NCBI GenBank assembly: GCA_964410185.1
Contig: CAYPFM010000003.1
Span: forward strand, 150,119 to 214,118
From: an uncultured Candidatus Saccharibacteria bacterium
Lineage (GTDB): Bacteria > Patescibacteriota > Saccharimonadia > Saccharimonadales > JAUPVS01
DNA length: 64,000 nucleotides
Direction: 5' to 3'
Position 1 is the stretch's first letter, and the number at the start of each line of letters is the position of its first letter. Both the position numbers and the translations under genes were made by a program. The notes below the pieces were generated by a model. It made no database searches. It saw only the letters and a program-made list of their open reading frames with translations, and was not told the origin of the DNA. Positions 17,441-27,312 of this stretch are shown one piece after another.

Positions 17441-17647
17441 TCACCCGAGGGTAAAAACTTCTTCTACAGGCACGCCGAACACATCAGCAATAGCCAACGC
17501 CAACGCCACTGAGGGAGCATAATCACCACCCTCGATAACGTTAATCGTTTTGCGCGCAACACCTACTTTTTTGGCAAGCTCATCTTGGGTGAGCGACTGT
17601 GCTGCCCGTAATAGCTTTAGATTATTGCGCAATTCCCGATTAGGCAT
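17441..17647 (-). CDS. XRE-family HTH transcriptional regulator
   Basis: 68 aa; SLTQDELAKKVGVARKTINVIEGG. Confidence 0.8.
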   Translation of the reverse strand: MPNRELRNNLKLLRAAQSLTQDELAKKVGVARKTINVIEGGDYAPSVALALAIADVFGVPVEEVFTLG

Positions 17648-18083
17648 CGAGCTGACCGCCCTTGCGGACCATGATAATCCACGAGATACCTAGTGTCATT
17701 GCCAGAAAGCCAAGTACACCCTGGTAGTTGTTGCTTCCTAAAAATACCGCCAACAAAACCCCGGTACTTAAAAAGTCGAAGGCTCGAGCCTTAGCACGAT
17801 CAGCGATAAGCTCTTGGTATTCATCTTTGGAGTTACGAATCAGCCTCATGATGACCGGTCGCGTGTACAGTGCCACAAACACCAACACCCACACGCAGGT
17901 GCCGATCCAGTTAAACCAGCTGGGAATCTGACTTATATGTTTGGTTGACTGCAAAATAGCCAACACAATATTTATAACACCAATCAGTATAAATAAAACG
18001 CCGGCAGTGAGCAGCTTAACGCTCTGGCGTTGCATAAGTTTTTCTACGTCTTGGTGCTTTTTTGCAGTACTATGGGCGCTCAT
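17640..18083 (-). CDS. membrane protein co-transcribed with the XRE regulator
   Basis: 147 aa, four TM helices; 8-nt overlap with the downstream XRE gene. Confidence 0.5.
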   Translation of the reverse strand: MSAHSTAKKHQDVEKLMQRQSVKLLTAGVLFILIGVINIVLAILQSTKHISQIPSWFNWIGTCVWVLVFVALYTRPVIMRLIRNSKDEYQELIADRAKARAFDFLSTGVLLAVFLGSNNYQGVLGFLAMTLGISWIIMVRKGGQLDA

Positions 18084-18704: not shown

Positions 18705-19550
18705 TCAGGTTACCTCAATAATTACTTTAGCAAAGCCCTTTTCTTGAAGCTCTTGCTTTAGAGTATCGGTGGTCGTCTGTAATTGTTTATAGTCTGTTAC
18801 TTTAAGTACAACCGTAAAGCATAGTACATATTCATTACTAGAAATAGCCCATACATATAGGTCTTTTACTAACTTTACATTCTTATTGAGTAATATATGT
18901 TTGGTAATTTCATCCAGATCTACACCATTAGGTACACCTTCCAAAAAAATATTTGTGGCTTGGCGCAAAATCCCAAATGCGGCATAGAGCAGCCCTATCA
19001 CAACACCAATACTAATTGCGGGGTCTATCCATGTGTAACCGGTCAGTAGGATAAGCAAGCCTGCAATCAATGATGCAACTGAAAAAAGGGCGTCAAAGGC
19101 CATATTGGTGTAGGCAGCTTTGACATTTATATCCTCTCTATTTTTTCGGAAAAGAGCCGCCACACTTCCATTAGCGACGATACCTATTGCTGCAACCACA
19201 GCAATTACCCCACCCTCCAACGGTACGGGGTGATGAAAGCGTTGGTAAGCTTCGATTAAGATAAACCCAGCAATCCCAACGAGTATGGAGCTATTAATAA
19301 AAGCAGTCAGAACACTGACACGACCATGCCCAAGCGTGTGGCTTTTATCGGCCGGTTTCTTCGCAACACGATCCCCCAACCAGGAAACAGCCAAAGTGAC
19401 GGAGTCTGTAAGATTATGCGTCGCATCAGCGACAAGAATTAAGCTGCCGGTGGTTAACCCAGCAACAAACTCAAAAATCATGAAGGTTGTGTTGATTGCA
19501 AACCCAAGCTTGAAGCGATTACTTAAACTCAACGCCATACGTCTAAGCAT
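18705..19550 (-). CDS. czcD: cation diffusion facilitator transporter
   Basis: 281 aa; ADATHNLTDSV and HTLGHGR motifs, six TM helices plus a cytoplasmic C-terminal domain. Confidence 0.85.
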   Translation of the reverse strand: MLRRMALSLSNRFKLGFAINTTFMIFEFVAGLTTGSLILVADATHNLTDSVTLAVSWLGDRVAKKPADKSHTLGHGRVSVLTAFINSSILVGIAGFILIEAYQRFHHPVPLEGGVIAVVAAIGIVANGSVAALFRKNREDINVKAAYTNMAFDALFSVASLIAGLLILLTGYTWIDPAISIGVVIGLLYAAFGILRQATNIFLEGVPNGVDLDEITKHILLNKNVKLVKDLYVWAISSNEYVLCFTVVLKVTDYKQLQTTTDTLKQELQEKGFAKVIIEVT

Positions 19551-19697
19551 ATCAAACAGCTCTATAAAAGTAACCGAGGTTCTAGTCTACTTTTTTGATT
19601 TGTGCATGACCATTGACCCAACACCCACGCAAAGGCCTACTATGAATCCAATAATCCACTGTTCCTAGCGTTAAGTGCACATAAGTCTGACGGGGAT

Positions 19698-19794
19698 GAG
19701 GTATGAACGCTGCGCTACCGCCCGCGTCGCTTACTCGAAGCAAGCTTCTGCGTGAGCTCCTTGTCGTCGAACCCCGGCTGCGCCGTATGGGTTC
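19698..19794. repeat. repeat copy B (73-nt core plus GC-rich hairpin module)
   Basis: Core 19698-19770; hairpin GAACCC-CGGCTGCGCCGTAT-GGGTTC at 19769-19794. Confidence 0.6.
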
Positions 19795-19820
19795 ACTCCC
19801 CTTCTTCCCGAAACAAAGAA

Positions 19821-19847
19821 AAAAGACCATACTGTGCATGGTCTTTT
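19821..19847. terminator. bidirectional rho-independent terminator
   Basis: AAAAGACCAT-ACTGTGC-ATGGTCTTTT with an A-run before and a T-run after. Confidence 0.6.
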
Positions 19848-19981
19848 TTCTTTGGCTGGGCGAAAGGTTGATATTCCAAACTTTTGAGGAATTAGATTCA
19901 ATCCCCGATAAGGAAACTGAACTCAAGGAAATTCGCGACCTATTAGATGATAACACCACTCCTCATAAGGAGGAGATGTAA

Positions 19982-20530
19982 ATGCGTAGGCGCGGTAAAT
20001 CTAGTTCAAATGGTGGCATGATGGCCACTATACTCTTCGCAATATCTTGCTATGGCCTCCTAAGTAACCCTGTCTTTGTAGCTAAAGTAGAAGAAATCGC
20101 CAGATATGCCGTGGCAGTTGTTGCTTCGATCATTGTAGCCACATTCACGGTACGATTAGCAAGGAAAATTAACAGTCGAGGAATAAAAGCAGTAGATACC
20201 ATGTCAGGAGTAGAATTTGAACATTATGTGGCCAAACTCTTAGCAAAACAGGGCTACAGCCATATTTCATTCACCGAGCGATATGACTACGGTATAGATA
20301 TTGTCGCTGACAAGGATGGTATCAAGTGGGGTATCCAAGTAAAGCGCCATAAAGGTCCAGTAAAAGCCCTTGCTGTACGCCAAGCCGTTACTGCCTTGAA
20401 GAAGTACTGCTGCGACAGAGCCATGGTGGTGTCTAATAGCCAGTTTAGCCGAGTTGCTGTGGAGCTTGCCAGAACCAATGACTGCACTTTAATAGATAGG
20501 AATAAGTTAGTGAGTTGGATAACGGCTTAA
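19982..20530 (+). CDS. membrane-anchored restriction-endonuclease-fold (Mrr_cat-like) protein
   Basis: Two N-terminal TM helices, then GVEFEHYVAKLLAKQGY...DYGIDIVADKDGIKWGIQVKRH (D...QxK core). Confidence 0.7.
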   Translation: MRRRGKSSSNGGMMATILFAISCYGLLSNPVFVAKVEEIARYAVAVVASIIVATFTVRLARKINSRGIKAVDTMSGVEFEHYVAKLLAKQGYSHISFTERYDYGIDIVADKDGIKWGIQVKRHKGPVKALAVRQAVTALKKYCCDRAMVVSNSQFSRVAVELARTNDCTLIDRNKLVSWITA

Positions 20531-20739
20531 AATGGGAAGATGTCTGAGGACTTCACCCCAAGAGCTTTGATTATCTTTTCAAGTATTTCTACTGATGGAT
20601 TAATCTCGCTACGTTCAATCTTTGCATAGTAATTGGAGTTAATGCCTGCTTTTTCGGCTAAGCCAGCCTGACTCAAACCTTTTTGGAGTCGAACTTGCTT
20701 CAATTTCTGAGCAATTTTCTTGCTTGTCTTATCTGTCAT
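20527..20739 (-). CDS. XRE-family HTH transcriptional regulator
   Basis: 70 aa; GLSQAGLAEKAGINSNYYAKIERSE. Confidence 0.8.
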   Translation of the reverse strand: MTDKTSKKIAQKLKQVRLQKGLSQAGLAEKAGINSNYYAKIERSEINPSVEILEKIIKALGVKSSDIFPF

Positions 20740-20780
20740 TTCAGCTCTACAGTACTGTATTACAGAATGGGAGTAAAGGC

Positions 20781-20978
20781 TTATTCACCTTTGAGAACAT
20801 CTAACAGGCGATGCAGCCATTCTTCTGCGCCGATCTCCTGAATTAGTTTGGCGTTAGCCTTTACCCAGTCTTCTTCGGCTATGAGTGGTTCGTGATCTTC
20901 GCTCAGGTTCTTTGCAATTACAATAGCATAGTAGGGGTTGGCGAGCATCTTCTTCAGGTTGTTCTCATCATTGGTCAT
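20781..20978 (-). CDS. small acidic hypothetical protein downstream of the RT
   Basis: 65 aa ORF 44 nt after the RT stop, same strand; no family recognised. Confidence 0.4.
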   Translation of the reverse strand: MTNDENNLKKMLANPYYAIVIAKNLSEDHEPLIAEEDWVKANAKLIQEIGAEEWLHRLLDVLKGE

Positions 20979-21021
20979 CTATGCAAGATTATACCACGCA
21001 CAAAGATGTCCTCTCGATGCA

Positions 21022-22335
21022 TCACAGCTTACTCTTGGCAGTTCTGCGTATTTTATTAAGTTGGCGGCCAACTCTAGCAGAATTCGTTTTCTTGTACGCG
21101 CCCCGCAGGTAGTCTGCTTTTCGGTTCCCACGTAGATGTTTGCTTAGGGTTGATGATCGGAAGCCAATTTTCTCACCATTGAAATGAAAGCCCAAGTATT
21201 GAGTTTCTTCTCGTTTGTTATTGCCAGCCGGTTCTAGCTCTTGCGTGACATTCTTCAGTAGCTTAGAATCCGGCTCCATTCTAAACGCCTCTGTCTTGTG
21301 TAAGCCTAATACAAGTTTATCATTGCTCAGCGCTTGCTTAAGTTGATCATAGATTTCAATCGCCTTTCCGAGCGGGCAGATTATAAATATATCGTCGCTG
21401 TAGCGCTGGTATACACCCCCGTACTTTTCAACTACGACATCTCTCATAGTTTGGTCAAAATCTAGAAGGTACAAGTTAGCAAGCACGCCGCTAATAGGGC
21501 TGCCTTGAGGAATTCCTTTGCCGCTTCGGTTCGTCCTGACTGACTGTTTTAGATAGTGGTTGTAATCACTCTGCCTACACAGCTTCAGGCAACCTTGTTC
21601 TTTGATCAGATATGACCGTCTTTTCGTACGCAGGGTCTGGATTGCTTCACTAAAAATTATGTAGCGATACTTCGTTATTCGGTTATAAATTATTTCATGA
21701 TCCTGGCTGGCTGCAAAGCCTCCGCGGATTAGATCAGACCATCTTTTCTTAAGCAGAATGTGGTCAATTGTATCAAAAAAGCTTTTTACATCCACCATCA
21801 TGCAATCATATTCATCACGAGACTGCATTTCGGTGAATGCTTCTTTGGCAAAGTCTACATTGTTTTTACCAGAAATTGAACGGTAAGCAATGACATTGTT
21901 GCCAAGGTTACTTTCTGCCAATCGATTCTCGTAAAGCAGCTGCAATGTATAGGAATAGTACGAAAAGATACAGGCATCGCGATGTGATGCGTACATGATA
22001 GGCCGGGATTTAATGTGGCTAAATTTCTTCTGATCACGTTCTCCGCGAAGCGACGAGTAGCTGTAGTCGTATGGTGGCTGCCTGAATTTTCGTTGACGTT
22101 GGTCTTTACGAATGAATGGCAAAAAACCGTGTTGAGCAAGTTTAGACTCCTGTTCAACTACCTCCTTTAACCAGGCTGCTTGTTCGGCGGGACGACCAAG
22201 TTTTGGAAAGTGAAGTTTACCGTCTAGATGAGGATAGCCACGTTCTCCAATAAAGTTCTTTTTGAAGGCTCTTTGGCCTTTTGTTTTGCTTTCTTGGGCT
22301 TCTAGCCATTCTTCGTAAAGGGGTTTTTGGTTCAT
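21022..22335 (-). CDS. reverse transcriptase (stand-alone; Abi/UG-like rather than retron or group II by motifs)
   Basis: RT motifs RPIMYASHRDACIF (1), AYRSISGKN (2), VDVKSFFDTIDH (3), GIPQGSPISGVLANLYL (4), YQRYSDDIFII (5, YSDD), YLGFHF (7). Confidence 0.9.
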   Translation of the reverse strand: MNQKPLYEEWLEAQESKTKGQRAFKKNFIGERGYPHLDGKLHFPKLGRPAEQAAWLKEVVEQESKLAQHGFLPFIRKDQRQRKFRQPPYDYSYSSLRGERDQKKFSHIKSRPIMYASHRDACIFSYYSYTLQLLYENRLAESNLGNNVIAYRSISGKNNVDFAKEAFTEMQSRDEYDCMMVDVKSFFDTIDHILLKKRWSDLIRGGFAASQDHEIIYNRITKYRYIIFSEAIQTLRTKRRSYLIKEQGCLKLCRQSDYNHYLKQSVRTNRSGKGIPQGSPISGVLANLYLLDFDQTMRDVVVEKYGGVYQRYSDDIFIICPLGKAIEIYDQLKQALSNDKLVLGLHKTEAFRMEPDSKLLKNVTQELEPAGNNKREETQYLGFHFNGEKIGFRSSTLSKHLRGNRKADYLRGAYKKTNSARVGRQLNKIRRTAKSKL

Positions 22336-22736
22336 AGTAAATCCTGAAACTTGGCTCCCCGGTGCGGCGTAGCACTGTTACCCTAGGGTGAGGAGCCAAG
22401 GCAGTCGGCAGAGCGTTTGCGAAACGAGTACAGACTAGAACGGGGATAATGAGAGGTACTTTTCTCGAGTAGTTACGCCAAAGTCAATTCATTTGCGAAG
22501 AACTACAATGGTATCATGGCTATTGCTATCACAACACTATTTGTAACTCAGCAAGCGAGTAAGGGTATGCTACTATTGAAATTCAAGAGTAGTTTGGCCT
22601 TACGGCTAACCGCCTCCGTCAGCATTATCTGCCAGCTCGGGCTTGACCTCTGTCCTGTCTCACCTGCCGATGGTGCAGATCCCGTTCTCGTCCACACTAT
22701 TGTTGGCCACGGCAGTGGGTTGTTACCCTAAACAGT
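22336..22736 (-). ncRNA. structured ~400-nt leader/ncRNA of the RT gene
   Basis: No sense ORF of 60 aa or more; starts about 7 nt after an extended -10; multiple hairpins including a 9-bp stem at 22350-22400. Confidence 0.5.
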
Positions 22737-22742
22737 GGCTAT

Positions 22743-22751
22743 ATTATACCA
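22743..22751 (-). promoter_or_regulatory. extended -10 promoter (TGGTATAAT) for the RT leader
   Basis: Minus strand AAATTTGGTATAATAT. Confidence 0.5.
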
Positions 22752-22825
22752 AATTTGTATATATTACGCTACTGCTTTGCGACAAAATAGCACTAATGTC
22801 AAAGCGTTTATGCTATAAAAAGTAT

Positions 22826-22854
22826 TTGCATTATTAGCAAATGTCGTGTTATAA
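22826..22854 (+). promoter_or_regulatory. promoter of the T4SS operon
   Basis: TTGCAT-N17-TTATAA, then AAGGAG RBS and ATG 22876. Confidence 0.45.
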
Positions 22855-22875
22855 AGGTGGCCATAAGGAGTTGGT

Positions 22876-23217
22876 ATGAAAAATCGCAACAAACTTACAC
22901 TGCTAGTCACTTACGTGTCTATCGGGTTGCCATTCATCCTCACCCAACCAGTCTTTGCCGCTACGGGGGATGTAGGGAGTGTTGAAAGCTTTCTTCGAAG
23001 TATTATTCAGGTAGTCGCAGGACTAGCCGGTCTCATAGCGACCGGCTTTTTTGTAATCGGTGGCTTTAGTTATATCACCAGCTCAGGTAACCCAGAGCAT
23101 CTGGATAAGGCCAAGCGTACGCTGATGTATTCAGCGATAGGATTGGCTATCACGATCGGAGCGTTCGTCCTCAGTAATATTGTGGGCGATCTCGCCCACC
23201 GGGCGTTCGGAGGATAA
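22876..23217 (+). CDS. VirB2/TrbC-like T4SS pilin
   Basis: Signal peptide ending VFAATG; two TM helices flanking GGFSYITSSGNPEHLDKAKR. Confidence 0.6.
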   Translation: MKNRNKLTLLVTYVSIGLPFILTQPVFAATGDVGSVESFLRSIIQVVAGLAGLIATGFFVIGGFSYITSSGNPEHLDKAKRTLMYSAIGLAITIGAFVLSNIVGDLAHRAFGG

Positions 23218-23221
23218 CCGA

Positions 23222-24466
23222 ATGCTTGGACGATCAGCCATCATCCTTAACAGAATGGCTGACGCGTCCGCGGCCAGCCAGTCTATTAAGAGTTATCTGG
23301 CACCAGTTCTTTTAACTCTGGGTGGACTAGCTGTTATTGTTTGTACCTTCTTCCTCGTGGTTGGCGGTATCGGCTACATGACCAGTGCTGGTAAGCCAGA
23401 TAAGTTAGAGCATGCCAAGAAAGTGATTCGCAATGCCCTCATAGGGTTAGTGATCGTGATTGCCGCCGGTACTCTGACGTCAATACTGGTTCACGCCTAT
23501 GCTGGCTCCACCGGTACGGCGGTACAGCAGTTGCCGGATCTTGGTTCAGTCAATCCGGCTAGTAACTCACCAGGTCTTATTGACGTGCTCATCAAAGCAA
23601 TCACAGGTTTGTTCCAGTACATTGTGGAATCAGCAGCCAAACCGTTTATTGCTGGCCTAGATTTCTTTACGAAAGGTACACCACTAATGGCCGCCAACGC
23701 AGCCGTCTTTAACTTGTGGCTTGCCACTGTGGCCATTGCTGACGCCCTGTTTGTACTAGTCGTGGCACTACTCGGTTTCCATATTATGAGCTTTGCTGCA
23801 TTAGGGTTAGACGAAATTGAGTTTAAGCATCTATTGCCACAATTAGCAGCTGCTTTCTTACTAATTAACACCTCGATCTTCTGGATAGATATGGTGATTG
23901 GATTATCTAATGCCCTGATTGATGCTATCAACGCGGCGTTTCCGGGTGATTCTGTCTGGAAGGCTCTGTCTGGTGTAGTCGAGCATTCCACTGGTCTTGG
24001 GCTCGTGGCACTACTGGTCATGGTGGCTTTCATGATTCTGGCGGTAATTCTGATGATCTACTATATTACCCGTATCGTAACCCTCTATCTTGGTGCGGTG
24101 CTCGCCCCATTAGTGGTGCTGCTGTGGTTACTTCCAGGCTTTAAAGATTTTGCTGTGACCGCTATTAAAACCTACGTCGTTACTATTTTTGTATTGTTCG
24201 TGCACGTAATTATTCTATTGTTGGCAGCGTCATTACTTGCCAGTGTAGTGGCGACAGGGGGTAGTACACTAAACTCCTTTATGGCCATGTTGGTCGGTTG
24301 CGCAACGCTGATTGCGCTCTTAAAAACCCAGGGTCTCATGAATCAACTCGCCTACGTCAGTATGGGGCCAAAAGCACTCCGAAAACTTGGCTCTCAGTTT
24401 ATGACGGGCGTAAGTTACATGACCACTAAGGGTAAAGCAGTTGCCAAGGCAGGAGCTGCAGAATGA
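23222..24466 (+). CDS. VirB6/TrbL-like polytopic T4SS protein with an N-terminal pilin-like module
   Basis: Start moved to MLGRSA (GGAGGA RBS). The N-terminal GGIGYMTSAGKPDKLEHAKK is paralogous to the preceding pilin; at least 6 further TM helices. Confidence 0.6.
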   Translation: MLGRSAIILNRMADASAASQSIKSYLAPVLLTLGGLAVIVCTFFLVVGGIGYMTSAGKPDKLEHAKKVIRNALIGLVIVIAAGTLTSILVHAYAGSTGTAVQQLPDLGSVNPASNSPGLIDVLIKAITGLFQYIVESAAKPFIAGLDFFTKGTPLMAANAAVFNLWLATVAIADALFVLVVALLGFHIMSFAALGLDEIEFKHLLPQLAAAFLLINTSIFWIDMVIGLSNALIDAINAAFPGDSVWKALSGVVEHSTGLGLVALLVMVAFMILAVILMIYYITRIVTLYLGAVLAPLVVLLWLLPGFKDFAVTAIKTYVVTIFVLFVHVIILLLAASLLASVVATGGSTLNSFMAMLVGCATLIALLKTQGLMNQLAYVSMGPKALRKLGSQFMTGVSYMTTKGKAVAKAGAAE

Positions 24467-24981
24467 AATCAACGACCGTACCCGCTCAAGTTACCACCGT
24501 TGAGGATAAAATTGCTGGTAACTTAAACCTCGCGCAGTTGTTGCTACTGGCTGCATCTGTGTTCGGTGGTTTTGCCTTGTATATCGTCGTACCGCCAATG
24601 ATGCACTTCTCGCTCATAAAGGTGATGCTGTGTCTGGTAATCATGCTGGTCTTTGCCTCATTAGCAATTCGGGTGCGGGGTCGAATCTTAGCGCTTTGGG
24701 TTGGCACGATTCTCCGTTATAACTTGCGACCACGCTACTACCTGTACGACAAGAACGATACCTACTTACGGGTGAGTGAGCAAGAAGCACCCAAGGAAGT
24801 AGCCGAAACCAATACAATCGAGGTTACAGATACGGATAAGCATTCAGCCTTAGATATTCCGATGAACAAACGTATCCAACTTGAAACAGTCATGGCTGAT
24901 CCAACTGCTCAGCTCGCCTTTGAAACCAATAAGAAAGGAGGTCTCCATGTTCGTATTACAGAAGTCAAACAAGAAAGTTAG
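24463..24981 (+). CDS. PrgI/VirB3-like small T4SS membrane protein
   Basis: VPAQVTTVEDKIAGNLNLAQLLLL N-terminus and two TM helices; ATGA overlap with the upstream gene. Confidence 0.45.
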   Translation: MKSTTVPAQVTTVEDKIAGNLNLAQLLLLAASVFGGFALYIVVPPMMHFSLIKVMLCLVIMLVFASLAIRVRGRILALWVGTILRYNLRPRYYLYDKNDTYLRVSEQEAPKEVAETNTIEVTDTDKHSALDIPMNKRIQLETVMADPTAQLAFETNKKGGLHVRITEVKQES

Positions 24982-25555
24982 CACCAGAAGACAAATTAAT
25001 ATTAAAGGTGTCCGTGACAATGTCCTATTGCTACCTAACCACCAGTACCGTTTAGTGTTAGATATTTCCTCGGTGAACTTTGAGCTCAAGAGTGAAGCTG
25101 AACAAGACGCATTGATTGATACCTATCAAAGTTTCTTAAATTCTCTCGGCTGTGATGTACAGATCATGGTACGTATTCGTGAGCTGGATATGGATAAATA
25201 CATTGCTGAGTTCACGTCCCGCATGAGAAATGAGGAAGAAACCATTTACAAAGAGCAACTCAAAAACTACACCTCTTTCGTCCGCGGCTTAATCCAGACA
25301 AACAAGATCTTAGCACGTCAGTTCTATATTGTGATTCCCACTTCTGGGAAGGATGAGTTTGACTTGATAAAAGAGCAGCTTCACCTGAATGCCGACATTA
25401 TCGCTAAAGGTTTGGCTCGCATGGGTATGCATAGTCGCCAACTAACCAGCCTCGAGCTTCTTGACCTGTTCTACAGCTTCTATAACCCCGGACAAGCTAA
25501 GCGCCAACCAATTACGAATCAAACCCTTGAGCTACTTAACAGGAGTTACCTATGA
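24947..25555 (+). CDS. VirB4-family ATPase, N-terminal domain encoded as a separate ORF
   Basis: Start moved to MFVLQKS (AAAGGAGG RBS). INIKGVRDNVLLLPNHQYRLVLDISSVNFELKSEAEQDALI is typical of Gram-positive VirB4/TraE N-termini. Confidence 0.6.
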   Translation: MFVLQKSNKKVSTRRQINIKGVRDNVLLLPNHQYRLVLDISSVNFELKSEAEQDALIDTYQSFLNSLGCDVQIMVRIRELDMDKYIAEFTSRMRNEEETIYKEQLKNYTSFVRGLIQTNKILARQFYIVIPTSGKDEFDLIKEQLHLNADIIAKGLARMGMHSRQLTSLELLDLFYSFYNPGQAKRQPITNQTLELLNRSYL

Positions 25556-27312
25556 AAATGCCAGATGTGACCAAGTTTGTAGACAAGAATAGTGCGATTG
25601 CGCAGTGGCAAAAGAAACGATCAGAGAAGCCCAAAGAACTTCGACTATTACTCGGTGAGCAAGATGCCATGGATGTACTTTCCTACGCAGGGCTGGAAGA
25701 GCAAGCTGATCACTTTGTAATTGATGGCCGGTATATGCGTGTTCTGTTTGTTTCGGGCTACCCATTCGTTGCTAGCTCCGGTTGGTTGAATAGCCTCGTG
25801 AACTTCAATCACAATGCGGATATTTCCTACCACATTGCCAGCGTTGATGCTACGCAAGCACTACCAAAATTACATCGCAAGATCACTGAACTGGAATCCA
25901 CTAAGCGTGCCTACATGCGTGTCGGTAAAATTATCGGGCCCGAAATCACTGATCCACTGGAATCAGCCACGCATTTACGAGATAAGATTCAGCGTGGTCA
26001 GGAAAAACTGTTTCAGGTCTCAATTTACGTGACATTGTCTGCCGATTCGATAACGGAACTCGATAAGACAACTAAATTACTGGAAACGGTTTTGTCAGCT
26101 CGCTTGTTCTATATTAAAACCGCACGCTACCAACAACTTGAGGCGTTGCAGTCTATTCTGCCCCGGGCTCAAGACATCCTGAATCAGAAACGTAACTTGG
26201 ATAGCTCATCTGCGGCGCTAACGTTTCCGTTTATGAGCTCCGAACTTGTGCAAGAATCGGGCATTTTGTATGGGGTAAACAAATCCAATAACTCATTGGT
26301 CATCTTAGATCGTTTCAGCCTCAATAACGCGAATAGCATCGTCTTTGCGCAGTCTGGGAGTGGAAAAAGCTACGCTACCAAAGTAGAAATCCTGAGACAG
26401 CTGATGCAAGGCACTAAGGTTATCGTGATTGACCCCGAACGAGAGTACAAAAGGTTAAGTGAATCAGTTAACGGAACGTATATTAAGTTATCGGCCAAAT
26501 CAAAGGAAAAGATTAATCCGTTTGACCTCTCTGCCACCTTCCACACTCGCAAAGATCTGTCTGAACATACTCAAGATTTAATTGAAGTGGTCTCGCTGAT
26601 GGCTGAAGGCTTAAGTCCTCGTGAAAAGGCGGCTGTCGATAAAGCCATTCTTAGGATCTATAGGACTGCGAAGAAGAAAACTCCATTACTGGAAGACCTG
26701 TACAAAGAACTCCATGTACTTGGACAAATTAAGCTCTGTGATCGCTTGGAGAAGTATATTAGCGGCTCATTGGCGGATGTCTTTAACGCACAGACAAATA
26801 TTAAGTTAGAAAACCGACTAGTAATCTTCGATATCAAGGACTTGCCGGAGTCTTTGCGGCAAATTATGATGATGATCATTTCCAACTTTGTAGCCAATCA
26901 GGTCAAAGCCAAGCCCGAAAAGCGCCTGTTGGTTATTGATGAAGGCTGGCTACTACTGGAGCACGAGGAATCGGCACGGTTTGTATCGGGCTTAGTCCGG
27001 CGTGCGCGCAAGTACTACCTCGGAGTCTCGATTATCTCCCAGCAAGCTAACGACTTTCTTAAGAACGACTACGGTCGCGCCATTGCCTCACAAAGTTCTT
27101 TACGTATTCTCATGCGCCAGGACACCACAACTATTAAGAATGTGGTCTCAGAGTTTCACTTGAGTGAATACGAGGAAAACTTTCTGCTGACGTGTGATAA
27201 GGGTGAAGCCTTAATTATTGCCGACCAGCACCATGTGGCCGTTAAAGTGGTCGCTTCAGGTAAAGAGCATCCTCTGATTACCACTAACCCCGCGGAGCTG
27301 TACCACCTATGA
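25552..27312 (+). CDS. virB4: VirB4-family T4SS ATPase (central and ATPase domains)
   Basis: Walker A FAQSGSGKSYATK, Walker B LLVIDEGW; ATGA overlap with the N-terminal-domain ORF. Confidence 0.85.
   Translation: MKMPDVTKFVDKNSAIAQWQKKRSEKPKELRLLLGEQDAMDVLSYAGLEEQADHFVIDGRYMRVLFVSGYPFVASSGWLNSLVNFNHNADISYHIASVDATQALPKLHRKITELESTKRAYMRVGKIIGPEITDPLESATHLRDKIQRGQEKLFQVSIYVTLSADSITELDKTTKLLETVLSARLFYIKTARYQQLEALQSILPRAQDILNQKRNLDSSSAALTFPFMSSELVQESGILYGVNKSNNSLVILDRFSLNNANSIVFAQSGSGKSYATKVEILRQLMQGTKVIVIDPEREYKRLSESVNGTYIKLSAKSKEKINPFDLSATFHTRKDLSEHTQDLIEVVSLMAEGLSPREKAAVDKAILRIYRTAKKKTPLLEDLYKELHVLGQIKLCDRLEKYISGSLADVFNAQTNIKLENRLVIFDIKDLPESLRQIMMMIISNFVANQVKAKPEKRLLVIDEGWLLLEHEESARFVSGLVRRARKYYLGVSIISQQANDFLKNDYGRAIASQSSLRILMRQDTTTIKNVVSEFHLSEYEENFLLTCDKGEALIIADQHHVAVKVVASGKEHPLITTNPAELYHL

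What the first reader, a model, noticed from the sequence alone, without database searches (positions are those of the whole stretch)
19982..22751. Orphan reverse transcriptase with a ~400-nt non-coding leader, small ORF, XRE regulator and membrane-anchored Mrr-fold nuclease: candidate RT-based defence module
A 437-aa protein with a complete RT palm (motifs 1-7, active site YSDD) heads a minus-strand string: RT, then a 65-aa acidic ORF, then a 70-aa XRE HTH. That string converges, with a 4-nt 3' overlap and no terminator, on a two-TM protein carrying a restriction-endonuclease (D...QxK, Mrr_cat-like) domain.

The RT has no recognisable maturase or endonuclease extension, and I see no group II intron domain V/VI RNA. 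Its motif 2 reads AYRSISGKN rather than the retron NAxxH, and there is no VTG motif. By eye it therefore resembles the Abi/UG (DRT-type) stand-alone RTs more than retrons or introns. It also has an unusually long (~90 aa) spacer between motifs 3 and 4.

Upstream of the RT lie ~400 nt with no sense ORF of 60 aa or more, fired from an extended -10 (TGGTATAAT). This layout is what is seen for RT systems that use a dedicated ncRNA template. The module sits at the edge of a T4SS-bearing accessory segment, a typical location for defence genes. I cannot assign it to any described DRT, retron or Abi type. The combination with XRE plus a TM-Mrr nuclease is not one I recognise.
Basis: partly seen in the sequence, partly recalled or inferred. 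Interest (0 to 1): 0.85.

Follow-up and report, generated by a model that had tools for sequence, protein, structure and literature searches.

The report
DRT2 reverse transcriptase with neo template RNA
This is a DRT2-type anti-phage reverse transcriptase with its upstream template RNA, a known kind of system that copies the RNA into tandem DNA repeats encoding a toxic 'never-ending' protein; here it sits in a Saccharibacteria-type genome as a self-contained 1.8-kb cassette, and the neighbouring XRE, nuclease and small ORF are not part of it.

Summary
However, the RT can be assigned: it is Drt2/UG2 (PADLOC E 7.7e-104; solved Klebsiella Drt2 9c0i E 1e-47), though it falls below NCBIfam's equivalog cutoff.

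The leader is a conserved, structured ncRNA (11 loci; 37 of 80 pairs with compensatory changes). Antisense to it lie the hallmarks of a DRT2 neo proto-gene:
- an invariant TTGACC (−35) placed downstream of a TAnnnT hexamer (−10);
- an invariant ATG exactly 6 nt after the hexamer;
- a head-to-tail junction with a 17-bp spacer that gives repeats of 162, 159 or 156 nt, all multiples of 3;
- 0 stops in that circular frame in 11/11 loci, against 17–69 stops in each other frame.

The 65-aa ORF, XRE and TM-Mrr do not travel with the RT (0 of 93 RT loci). They form a separate conserved trio found elsewhere without an RT. Synteny shows that the 1.8-kb DRT2 cassette (20997–22807) is replaced in a related contig by a PDC-S06 defence gene.

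Verdict: a new member of a known kind. Its clade-specific features are a leaderless neo start, a 54-codon unit and a CPR host. The mechanism is inferred from sequence and homology, not demonstrated. Interest is moderate.

The parts
20997..22807 (.). Self-contained DRT2 cassette (RT + ncRNA + promoter region), bounded by synteny breakpoints
   Evidence: Window 19853-20996 and 22808-24494 align to L094 at ~72% nt identity. The interval between them is replaced in L094 by a PDC-S06/AAA_13 gene.
21022..22335 (-). Drt2 (UG2) reverse transcriptase, 437 aa, active site YSDD
   Evidence: PADLOC Drt2 E 7.7e-104. NCBIfam NF041746 Drt2 scores 301.6 bits, below its cutoff of 390. PDB 9c0i Drt2 E 1.2e-47 over residues 50-407. 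Y312 S313 D314 D315 are invariant in 20 homologues.
22336..22737 (-). About 400-nt ncRNA (5' hairpin, template, 3' scaffold). The 5' end is predicted from the promoter, not measured.
   Evidence: Conserved in 11 loci. RNAalifold gives 80 pairs. 93% of cells pair against 35-40% in slid controls, 37 pairs have compensatory changes against 8-15, and 0/500 shuffles reach the observed values.
22743..22751 (-). Extended -10 (TGGTATAAT) of the ncRNA/RT transcript
   Evidence: Read directly. T.TA.A.T columns are invariant in alignment A2, followed by a variable 4-6 nt and then the conserved RNA 5' end CACTGTTGAGGG.
22768..22802 (-). Conserved upstream elements: TTGACA (22802-22797) and box TTGTCGCAAAGCAGTAGC (22785-22768). 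Role unexplained.
   Evidence: The box is conserved in 9 of 11 leaders and TTGACA in 5-6. The spacing to the -10 is too long for a single sigma70 promoter. Both lie inside the cassette boundary.
22664..22715 (-). 5' hairpin immediately upstream of the template (analogue of the DRT2 '5' handle')
   Evidence: Helices 3 and 4 of the consensus structure: 13 pairs, 7 with compensatory changes.
22497..22658 (-). Predicted 162-nt template (54 codons). Begins with ACA (22658-22656). Exact ends are inferred.
   Evidence: Boundaries follow from the ACA position plus a 17-bp promoter spacer. The equivalent unit is 162, 159 or 156 nt in 11 loci, and its circular antisense frame has 0 stops in 11/11.
22494..22496 (-). 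3' jump motif GCA (ACA-2 equivalent), immediately 3' of the template
   Evidence: RCA occupies this position in 9/11 loci (GCA in 8, ACA in L091; GCG in L006, GTG in L092). It lies exactly one repeat length from the 5' RCA (ACA in 9/11).
22643..22648 (+). neo -35 element TTGACC, on the cDNA-sense strand
   Evidence: GGTCAAG is invariant in all 11 leaders. It lies downstream of the -10 in the genome, so it can act only after head-to-tail concatenation.
22504..22509 (+). neo -10 element TACAAT, on the cDNA-sense strand
   Evidence: The TAnnnT pattern holds in 11/11 loci. T and A are invariant and lie in an unpaired part of the RNA.
22516..22518 (+). neo start codon ATG, exactly 6 nt after the -10 hexamer (predicted leaderless mRNA)
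   Evidence: CAT is invariant in the sense strand and the 6-nt gap is exact in 11/11 loci. The three pairs of helix 13 that contain it do not covary although the outer pairs do.
22516..22731 (+). Linear 71-aa antisense ORF: what an ORF finder sees of the neo proto-gene
   Evidence: Listed. The frame is open over 22453-22728. Gene callers annotated the equivalent 67-79-aa antisense ORFs in L088, L090, L091 and L093.
22336..22496 (-). 3' scaffold of the ncRNA, with hairpin CGTTT/AAACG and a long stem-loop (22399-22351) just before the RT RBS
   Evidence: Helices 14-18. Helix 15 has 6 of 10 pairs with compensatory changes. A covariance model of this part scores 167 bits on the window.

Best explanation
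Window 20997-22807 is a complete DRT2 anti-phage system: one gene (a Drt2/UG2 reverse transcriptase) plus its cognate ~400-nt ncRNA, transcribed together from the TGGTATAAT promoter.

The proposed mechanism is inferred by homology to the Klebsiella DRT2 experiments and from the sequence logic found here:
1. The RT binds the 3' scaffold and 5' hairpin of the ncRNA.
2. It copies the ~162-nt template (22658 to 22497 on the minus strand).
3. At the template's 5' ACA it jumps back to the RCA just 3' of the template, giving rolling-circle reverse transcription and a head-to-tail concatemeric cDNA.
4. Once the cDNA is double-stranded (triggered by phage in the model system), each junction assembles a sigma70 promoter: TTGACC, 17 bp, TACAAT.
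5. Transcripts start at or next to an ATG 6 nt downstream, so the mRNA is leaderless.
6. Translation runs through 54-codon repeats without a stop, producing a hydrophobic, basic 'Neo' polypeptide that arrests growth and aborts infection.

Shown here: family membership of the RT; conservation and structure of the ncRNA; the split promoter; the in-frame stop-free circular ORF; and independence from neighbouring genes.

Inferred, not shown: cDNA synthesis, the exact jump sites, the phage trigger, leaderless initiation, and Neo toxicity.
For: RT family:
- PADLOC Drt2 E 7.7e-104, with the next UG class at only 87 bits.
- NCBIfam best hit is Drt2.
- PDB Drt2 9c0i E 1.2e-47.

Known mechanism and defining features of DRT2 come from PMC11100668 and PMC12039810.

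ncRNA:
- The leader is conserved in 11 loci.
- Covariation is well above controls.

Neo logic:
- Invariant antisense TTGACC, TAnnnT and ATG.
- Repeat lengths of 162 (8 loci), 159 (2) and 156 (1), all multiples of 3.
- 0 stops in the neo frame in 11/11 loci, against totals of 42, 46, 21, 17 and 69 in the other five frames.
- Per-sequence chance of a stop-free frame is 0.03-0.18.
- Codon periodicity runs position 3 > 1 > 2, p = 0.02.

Generality: the same antisense signature occurs upstream of 22/78 distant DRT2 RTs, against 1/78 on the sense strand.

Autonomy:
- Downstream genes differ in every close homologous locus.
- tblastn finds no 65-aa ORF or Mrr in 93 RT loci.
- The cassette is swapped for PDC-S06 at identical breakpoints in L094.
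Against: - Nothing here is experimental.
- The RT scores below NCBIfam's Drt2 equivalog cutoff (301.6 against 390), so it belongs to a divergent clade. Tang et al. say Neo annotation in such clades was 'more challenging'.
- The 3' jump motif is GCA rather than ACA in most loci, so the exact junction is uncertain.
- Selection on the peptide sequence is weak: only 17% of codon differences are synonymous.
- Some invariant bases (GGTCAA, CAT) could also be constrained by RNA pairing.
- In a single sequence the loose signature is common: 10 hits in 128 kb, mostly inside real genes.
- The multiple-of-3 result depends on assuming a 17-bp spacer, which is a 1-in-3 coincidence for one family.
- No RBS precedes the ATG, so expression requires leaderless initiation, which has not been shown for this host.
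- A covariance model of the scaffold does not reach distant DRT2 loci, so homology to the Klebsiella ncRNA was not demonstrated.
Confidence: 0.8

Rival explanations
1. The RT and ncRNA make a repetitive or single-copy cDNA that acts without being translated (as DNA or RNA, like the tandem-repeat product of DRT10 or homopolymer-making DRTs). On this view the antisense open frame is either a conventional small gene or a by-product of RNA constraints.
For: - Amino-acid-level selection on the frame is weak.
- Several invariant 'promoter' bases lie in or next to predicted helices.
- Gene callers annotate a linear 67-79-aa antisense ORF in homologues.
- The literature notes that divergent DRT2 clades may use alternative mechanisms.
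Against: - A linear small gene has no -35 upstream of its -10. The only TTGACC lies downstream, at exactly the distance that gives an in-frame unit with a 17-bp spacer.
- Indels are all multiples of 3, and the frame is also stop-free upstream of the ATG across the predicted junction in 11/11 loci.
- The same signature is enriched antisense to distant DRT2 leaders, 22/78 against 1/78.
- The RT family is the one for which neo has been shown experimentally.
Confidence: 0.12
2. One reading: RT, 65-aa ORF, XRE and membrane-anchored Mrr nuclease form one multi-gene RT-based defence module, with the nuclease as effector.
For: - The genes are adjacent and compact: a 4-nt XRE/Mrr overlap, and 43 nt between the RT and the 65-aa ORF.
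- The XRE resembles restriction-modification control proteins, and the Mrr domain resembles domains in defence proteins.
Against: - None of 10 close RT loci has any of the three genes beside the RT, and tblastn against 93 RT loci finds no 65-aa ORF or Mrr.
- The trio occurs without any RT in L094 and L096, and as 65-aa + Mrr in L095.
- Synteny breakpoints fall between the RT and the 65-aa ORF, and the RT cassette is replaced by PDC-S06.
Confidence: 0.04
3. The cassette is a decaying or inactive remnant with no current function.
For: - The genome type is small and reduced, and the element is an accessory one.
- The RT scores below the curated equivalog cutoff.
Against: - The RT is full length with all family-invariant residues, including YSDD.
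- The ncRNA helices, promoter elements and stop-free frame are intact and match the clade consensus.
Confidence: 0.04

Closest known systems
Klebsiella pneumoniae DRT2 (KpnDRT2; Tang et al. 2024, PMC11100668; Wilkinson et al. 2024, PMC12039810; PDB 9c0i)
   Same: - A UG2-family RT with YxDD and the same long insertion between motifs 3 and 4.
- A single gene preceded by an ncRNA on the same transcript.
- A hairpin 5' of the template and a structured 3' scaffold.
- A template starting with ACA.
[quoted passage not shown]
- A repeat length that is a multiple of 3 with a stop-free circular ORF.
   Different: | Feature | This window | KpnDRT2 |
|---|---|---|
| Template | 162 nt, 54 codons | 120 nt, 40 codons |
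| ncRNA length | about 400 nt | 281 nt |
| 3' jump motif | mostly GCA | ACA |
| neo start | ATG 6 nt after the -10, so leaderless | has an RBS |
| Active site | YSDD | YCDD |
| Host | Saccharibacteria/CPR | Enterobacteria |

The RT is below the NCBIfam equivalog cutoff. ncRNA homology to KpnDRT2 was not demonstrated.
DRT10 and telomerase-like tandem-repeat synthesis (PMC12632851)
   Same: An RT plus ncRNA with a bounded template that is copied repeatedly into tandem DNA repeats.
   Different: DRT10 is protein-primed, makes short non-coding repeats and needs a SLATT effector. Here the RT matches Drt2 and not other UG classes, the unit is 162 nt and coding, and no partner gene is conserved.
Retrons
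   Same: A defence RT with an adjacent, dedicated ncRNA template.
   Different: The retron RT models score far lower (St85 48.9 bits against Drt2 301.6 bits). There is no conserved effector gene. The ncRNA architecture and the repeat-forming logic differ.
Group II intron RT/maturase
   Same: A shared RT palm fold (RVT_1).
   Different: TIGR04416 scores 67.6 bits against a cutoff of 300. No intron RNA domains are found by Rfam. There is no maturase or endonuclease extension.

Membership tests
DRT2 (UG2 defence-associated RT with neo ncRNA) | RT belongs to the UG2/Drt2 clade | tested here: met
   PADLOC Drt2 346 bits, E 7.7e-104, with the next class (UG17) at 87 bits. PDB Drt2 9c0i E 1.2e-47. 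Caveat: NCBIfam equivalog NF041746 scores 301.6 bits, below its cutoff of 390, so this is a divergent subclade. No tree was built.
DRT2 (UG2 defence-associated RT with neo ncRNA) | Intact polymerase active site (YxDD) | tested here: met
   YSDD at residues 312-315, invariant in 20 aligned homologues.
DRT2 (UG2 defence-associated RT with neo ncRNA) | Single-gene system: a structured ncRNA directly upstream on the same strand, with no conserved partner gene | tested here: met
   The leader is conserved and covaries in 11 loci. Neighbouring genes differ in every locus, and the window's neighbours are absent from 93 RT loci.
DRT2 (UG2 defence-associated RT with neo ncRNA) | Template flanked by matching ACA-1 and ACA-2 jump motifs | tested here: inconclusive
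   The 5' site is ACA in 9/11 loci. The 3' site, one repeat length away, is GCA in 8/11 and ACA in 1/11, so the motif is RCA/RCA rather than ACA/ACA. Exact jump sites cannot be read from sequence.
DRT2 (UG2 defence-associated RT with neo ncRNA) | Repeat length a multiple of 3, with a stop-free circular ORF antisense to the ncRNA | tested here: met
   Units of 162, 159 and 156 nt. 0 stops in 11/11 loci in the neo frame, against 17-69 in each other frame.
DRT2 (UG2 defence-associated RT with neo ncRNA) | Sigma70 promoter reconstituted only across the repeat junction | tested here: met
   Invariant TTGACC lies downstream of TAnnnT in the genome. A 17-bp spacer across the junction gives the in-frame lengths above. 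This is in silico only.
DRT2 (UG2 defence-associated RT with neo ncRNA) | RBS plus start codon for neo | tested here: not met
   The ATG is invariant but lies 6 nt after the -10 hexamer in 11/11 loci, leaving no room for an RBS. KpnDRT2 has a predicted RBS. This is read as a leaderless variant of the same logic.
DRT2 (UG2 defence-associated RT with neo ncRNA) | ncRNA matches the published DRT2 covariance models or the Klebsiella ncRNA fold (5' handle, tower, buttress, pseudoknot) | not testable with these tools
A model of this clade's scaffold finds only a marginal hit in one distant locus. The gross layout (5' hairpin, template, 3' scaffold) is analogous.
DRT2 (UG2 defence-associated RT with neo ncRNA) | RT-dependent concatemeric cDNA, phage-triggered neo expression, Neo toxicity, phage defence | not testable with these tools
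   These require experiments.
Retron | Retron-clade RT with an msr/msd ncRNA and an effector gene | tested here: not met
   Retron RT models score 49 bits or less, well below their cutoffs. No Rfam retron RNA is found. No conserved effector exists.
Group II intron | Intron-clade RT/maturase inside intron RNA domains I-VI | tested here: not met
   TIGR04416 scores 67.6 bits against a cutoff of 300. There is no group II intron Rfam match in 19000-24000.

The most novel reading that the evidence does not exclude
This Saccharibacteria/CPR clade is a distinct DRT2 variant. Its junction promoter fires a leaderless and stop-less neo mRNA: the ATG lies exactly 6 nt after the -10 in 11/11 loci, the repeats are 52-54 codons, and the jump motifs are RCA rather than ACA. 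It also rides as exchangeable cargo, swapped with PDC-S06, in a defence slot beside the patescibacterial T4SS. That slot is flanked by an uncharacterised, conserved 65-aa/XRE/membrane-Mrr trio that may itself be a new module.
Probability: 0.45. Interest if true: 0.55.

Novelty: new member of a known kind. Interest (0 to 1): 0.4.

Why it matters
[quoted passage not shown] The founding papers reported that Neo annotation was difficult in divergent clades.
- It gives concrete, testable predictions: a 162-bp repeat, a defined junction sequence, a leaderless start at 22516, and a 54-aa Neo unit.
- It corrects a tempting mis-annotation on two counts. The antisense 'hypothetical protein' that gene callers place upstream of these RTs is a neo proto-gene. 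The adjacent XRE and Mrr genes are not its effectors.
- If leaderless, stop-less neo mRNAs are confirmed, they would be an mRNA made only of sense codons.
- The DRT2/PDC-S06 swap marks a defence hotspot next to the T4SS in these genomes.

Tried and rejected
1. Rfam scan of 19000-24000: nothing on the leader, only weak chance hits on a palindrome at ~19800.
2. ACA-only template candidates of 114 nt (22545-22658) and 159 nt (22545-22703). I rejected them because the ACA at 22544-22542 is not conserved in homologues and neither unit brings the -35 and -10 to a workable spacing.
3. A long-range pairing of the 5' CACTGTT with the 3' AACAGTG. I rejected it because covariation supports a local GTG/CAC stem instead, and L091 and L093 break the long-range pairing.
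4. Metagenome scan with the RT: only one extra locus. The genome scan gave only one close relative.
5. Covariance model of the 3' scaffold against 83 sources: only the window itself and a marginal hit in L009, so ncRNA homology across DRT2 clades could not be shown.
6. The published Klebsiella ncRNA sequence was not found in the held supplements.
8. Single-sequence RNA folding: z = -1.45, not informative.
9. Viral contigs hold only distant DRT2 relatives. Four leader-motif hits there have no RT and are chance matches.
10. A loose neo-signature scan of the whole window gave 10 hits in 128 kb. The signature is therefore not diagnostic in one sequence and was used only together with conservation.
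11. PHROGs and PADLOC give no match for the 65-aa ORF.


Full report
**1. Observation**

- RT: 21022-22335 (-), 437 aa, with YSDD.
- 65-aa ORF: 20781-20978 (-).
- XRE: 20527-20739 (-).
- Two-TM Mrr_cat protein: 19982-20530 (+), overlapping the XRE 3' end by 4 nt.

Pfam confirms RVT_1, HTH_3 and Mrr_cat. The minus-strand leader carries TGGTATAAT at 22751-22743. Rfam finds no intron, retron or other family in the region. The consensus scan shows no terminator at the XRE/Mrr junction and no second promoter between the leader and the RT.

**2. What the RT is**

The RT can be assigned. PADLOC's Drt2 model matches at E 7.7e-104 (346 bits), and the next UG class reaches only 87 bits. NCBIfam's best hit is 'antiviral reverse transcriptase Drt2' at 301.6 bits. 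That is below the equivalog cutoff of 390, so this is a divergent member.

Against solved structures, the best hit is Klebsiella Drt2 (9c0i and related entries), E 1.2e-47 over residues 50-407.

Homologues in the 5.8-billion-protein collection come from Patescibacteria and Saccharibacteria. About 15 are close (45-65% identity), followed by a long tail at 31-42%. A genome scan adds distant DRT2 loci in other CPR, Bacteroidota, Clostridia and Moraxella.

**3. What DRT2 is known to do**

This summary comes from PMC11100668 and PMC12039810. The RT binds an upstream ncRNA of about 280 nt. It copies a 120-nt template flanked by ACA motifs and jumps back to the start, producing concatemeric cDNA. After phage-triggered second-strand synthesis, a promoter appears whose -35 and -10 sit at opposite ends of the template. 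That promoter drives a stop-less 'neo' ORF antisense to the ncRNA, and Neo arrests growth. Each of these features can be tested in sequence.

**4. The leader is a conserved, structured ncRNA**

I fetched ten close-clade loci and aligned the 400-465 nt upstream of each RT. The promoter -10, the RNA 5' end (CACTGTTGAGGGTAAC) and long blocks through to the RT RBS are conserved.

RNAalifold predicts 80 pairs. Counted against controls:
- 93% of cells pair, against 35-40% when partners are slid by 1-3 columns.
- 37 pairs show compensatory changes, against 8-15 in the slid controls.
- 0 of 500 shuffles reach the observed values.

The layout has three parts:
- a 5' hairpin (window 22715-22664) directly before a conserved GAGACAGGAC;
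- a central region with several covarying helices;
- a 3' scaffold with a small hairpin and a long stem-loop (22399-22351) ending just before the RT RBS.

The window's own folding energy is unremarkable (z = -1.45), so the structural evidence rests on covariation.

**5. The neo signature**

On the strand antisense to the ncRNA (the + strand of the window), one frame is open from 22453 to 22728. Across all 11 loci, three antisense elements are fixed:
- CTTGACC, invariant (window 22643-22648);
- a hexamer fitting TAnnnT (window TACAAT, 22504-22509);
- an ATG exactly 6 nt after that hexamer (window 22516).

In the genome the -35 lies about 140 nt downstream of the -10, so the two cannot form a promoter on the chromosome. 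Joining the template head to tail with a 17-bp spacer gives units of 162 nt (8 loci), 159 nt (2) and 156 nt (1). All are multiples of 3.

The circular frame from the ATG has no stop in any of the 11 loci. The other five frames carry 42, 46, 21, 17 and 69 stops in total. Shuffled units are stop-free in a given frame only 3-18% of the time.

Sequence diversity is periodic in the coding direction (position 3 > 1 > 2, permutation p = 0.02). Selection on the peptide itself is weak, with 17% of codon differences synonymous.

At the position fixed by the ACA in GAGACAGGAC (10 nt from the -35), the site one repeat length downstream reads RCA in 9/11 loci: GCA in 8 and ACA in one. The predicted window junction is TTGACC-TCTGTCCTGT|GAAGAAC-TACAAT-GGTATC-ATG. 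The predicted Neo unit is MAIAITTLFVTQQASKGMLLLKFKSSLALRLTASVSIICQLGLDLCPVKNYNGI, which is hydrophobic (GRAVY 0.82) and basic (pI 9.6).

**6. Controls**

- The loose signature alone is not diagnostic. It occurs 10 times in the 128 kb of both strands of the window, mostly inside real genes.
- It is strongly enriched where the model predicts. It appears antisense upstream of 22 of 78 distant DRT2 RTs, against 1 of 78 on the sense strand of the same regions. Units of 144-162 nt recur in Saccharibacteria, Clostridia and Moraxella loci.
- The invariant CAT of the start codon sits in a helix whose outer pairs covary while its own three pairs do not. The TA of the -10 is in an unpaired stretch. Both point to sequence-specific rather than structural constraint.

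**7. The neighbours are not part of the system**

Downstream and upstream genes differ in every close homologous locus. tblastn with the 65-aa ORF, XRE and Mrr against all 93 RT loci finds only one XRE hit, far from the RT in a distant locus.

Searched from their own side, the 65-aa ORF is a real small family (26 homologues, 62-100% identity) and the TM-Mrr is common in Patescibacteria. The two share contigs that have no RT. In L094 and L096 the order 65-aa, XRE, convergent Mrr is preserved. In L095 the 65-aa gene directly abuts the Mrr gene.

L094 is syntenic with the window on both sides. Window 19853-20996 and 22808-24494 align at about 72% identity. The 1,811 nt between them (RT + ncRNA + promoter) are replaced by a 746-aa gene that matches the PADLOC candidate defence system PDC-S06 over its full length, E 1.5e-253.

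DRT2 is therefore a self-contained cassette in a slot that exchanges defence cargo. The slot lies between the T4SS pilin genes (TrbC/T4SS_pilin, PrgI and a VirB4-like ATPase) and the trio.

**8. Comparison with the known system**

The system works like KpnDRT2 and passes the family's sequence-testable criteria, with three exceptions:
- The 3' jump motif is GCA rather than ACA in most loci.
- No RBS precedes the neo ATG, which is placed for leaderless initiation.
- The RT is below NCBIfam's equivalog cutoff.

Homology of the ncRNA to the Klebsiella RNA could not be tested. There is no Rfam family, no published model was at hand, and my scaffold model does not reach distant loci.

In the held literature I found no paper linking DRT2 with CPR or Saccharibacteria, and none mentioning a leaderless neo. 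Tang et al. note that Neo annotation in divergent clades was more challenging.

**9. Verdict**

This is a DRT2 system, so it is a new member of a known kind with clade-specific features. Its interpretation is partly correct: a defence RT with an ncRNA template. It is wrong on unassignability and on the multi-gene module.

- Confidence that this is a DRT2 RT with its cognate ncRNA: about 0.95.
- Confidence that it works through a concatemer-encoded Neo as described: about 0.8.
- Interest is moderate (0.4). The mechanism is already famous, but the CPR host, the leaderless design, the explicit predictions and the defence slot are worth a specialist's attention.

Noticed in passing
window 19982-20978 (also L094 4001-5037, L096 4001-5015, L095 4001-4668): The 65-aa acidic ORF, the XRE and the convergent membrane-anchored Mrr nuclease form their own conserved trio. 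It is found in Patescibacteria contigs with no RT nearby. Its function is unknown, and PADLOC and PHROGs give only generic HTH and Mrr hits, with nothing for the 65-aa protein.
   Followed up: partly
window 20997-22807 versus L094 1691-4005: The slot between the T4SS pilin gene and the trio holds DRT2 in the window. In an otherwise syntenic contig it holds a full-length PDC-S06 (AAA_13) candidate defence gene. This looks like a defence-cargo hotspot next to the patescibacterial T4SS.
   Followed up: partly
window 22768-22802 (minus strand): A conserved TTGACA (22802-22797) and an 18-nt box TTGTCGCAAAGCAGTAGC (22785-22768) lie upstream of the ncRNA's extended -10. The box is conserved in 9 of 11 clade members. 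Both are too far from the -10 to serve as its -35. They could be an operator or a second promoter; this is unexplained.
   Followed up: no
window 19814-19854: A perfect 17-bp inverted repeat (CAAAGAAAAAAGACCAT / ATGGTCTTTTTTCTTTG) flanked by A/T runs looks like a bidirectional terminator, yet it lies between two divergently oriented genes (CDF transporter and Mrr). A related ~90-nt stretch occurs at a different position in L094 (7193-7283).
   Followed up: partly
window 24881-25555 and 25552-27312: The VirB4/TraC-like T4SS ATPase appears split into two ORFs that overlap by 4 nt: a TraC_F_IV N-terminal part, then a P-loop part. This is either a genuine split gene or a frameshift.
   Followed up: no
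window 17441-18083: A second small XRE gene (17441-17647) overlaps by 8 nt the end of a gene for a DUF3784-like membrane protein (17640-18083). This is another compact regulator and membrane-protein pair near the finding.
   Followed up: no
L010-L014, L026, L030, L038, L039, L057, L061, L070, L079 (upstream of their RTs): Distant DRT2 loci in Saccharibacteria, Clostridia and Moraxella show the same antisense split-promoter plus circular stop-free ORF, with units of 144-162 nt. Units longer than the canonical 120 nt therefore seem common outside the Klebsiella clade. L010 also has the ATG 6 nt after the -10.
   Followed up: partly
L088 600-833, L090 87-326, L091 307-599, L093 704-943: Public gene calls annotate 67-79-aa 'hypothetical proteins' antisense to the DRT2 leader. 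These are most likely linear views of neo proto-genes, which would be a systematic mis-annotation.
   Followed up: yes
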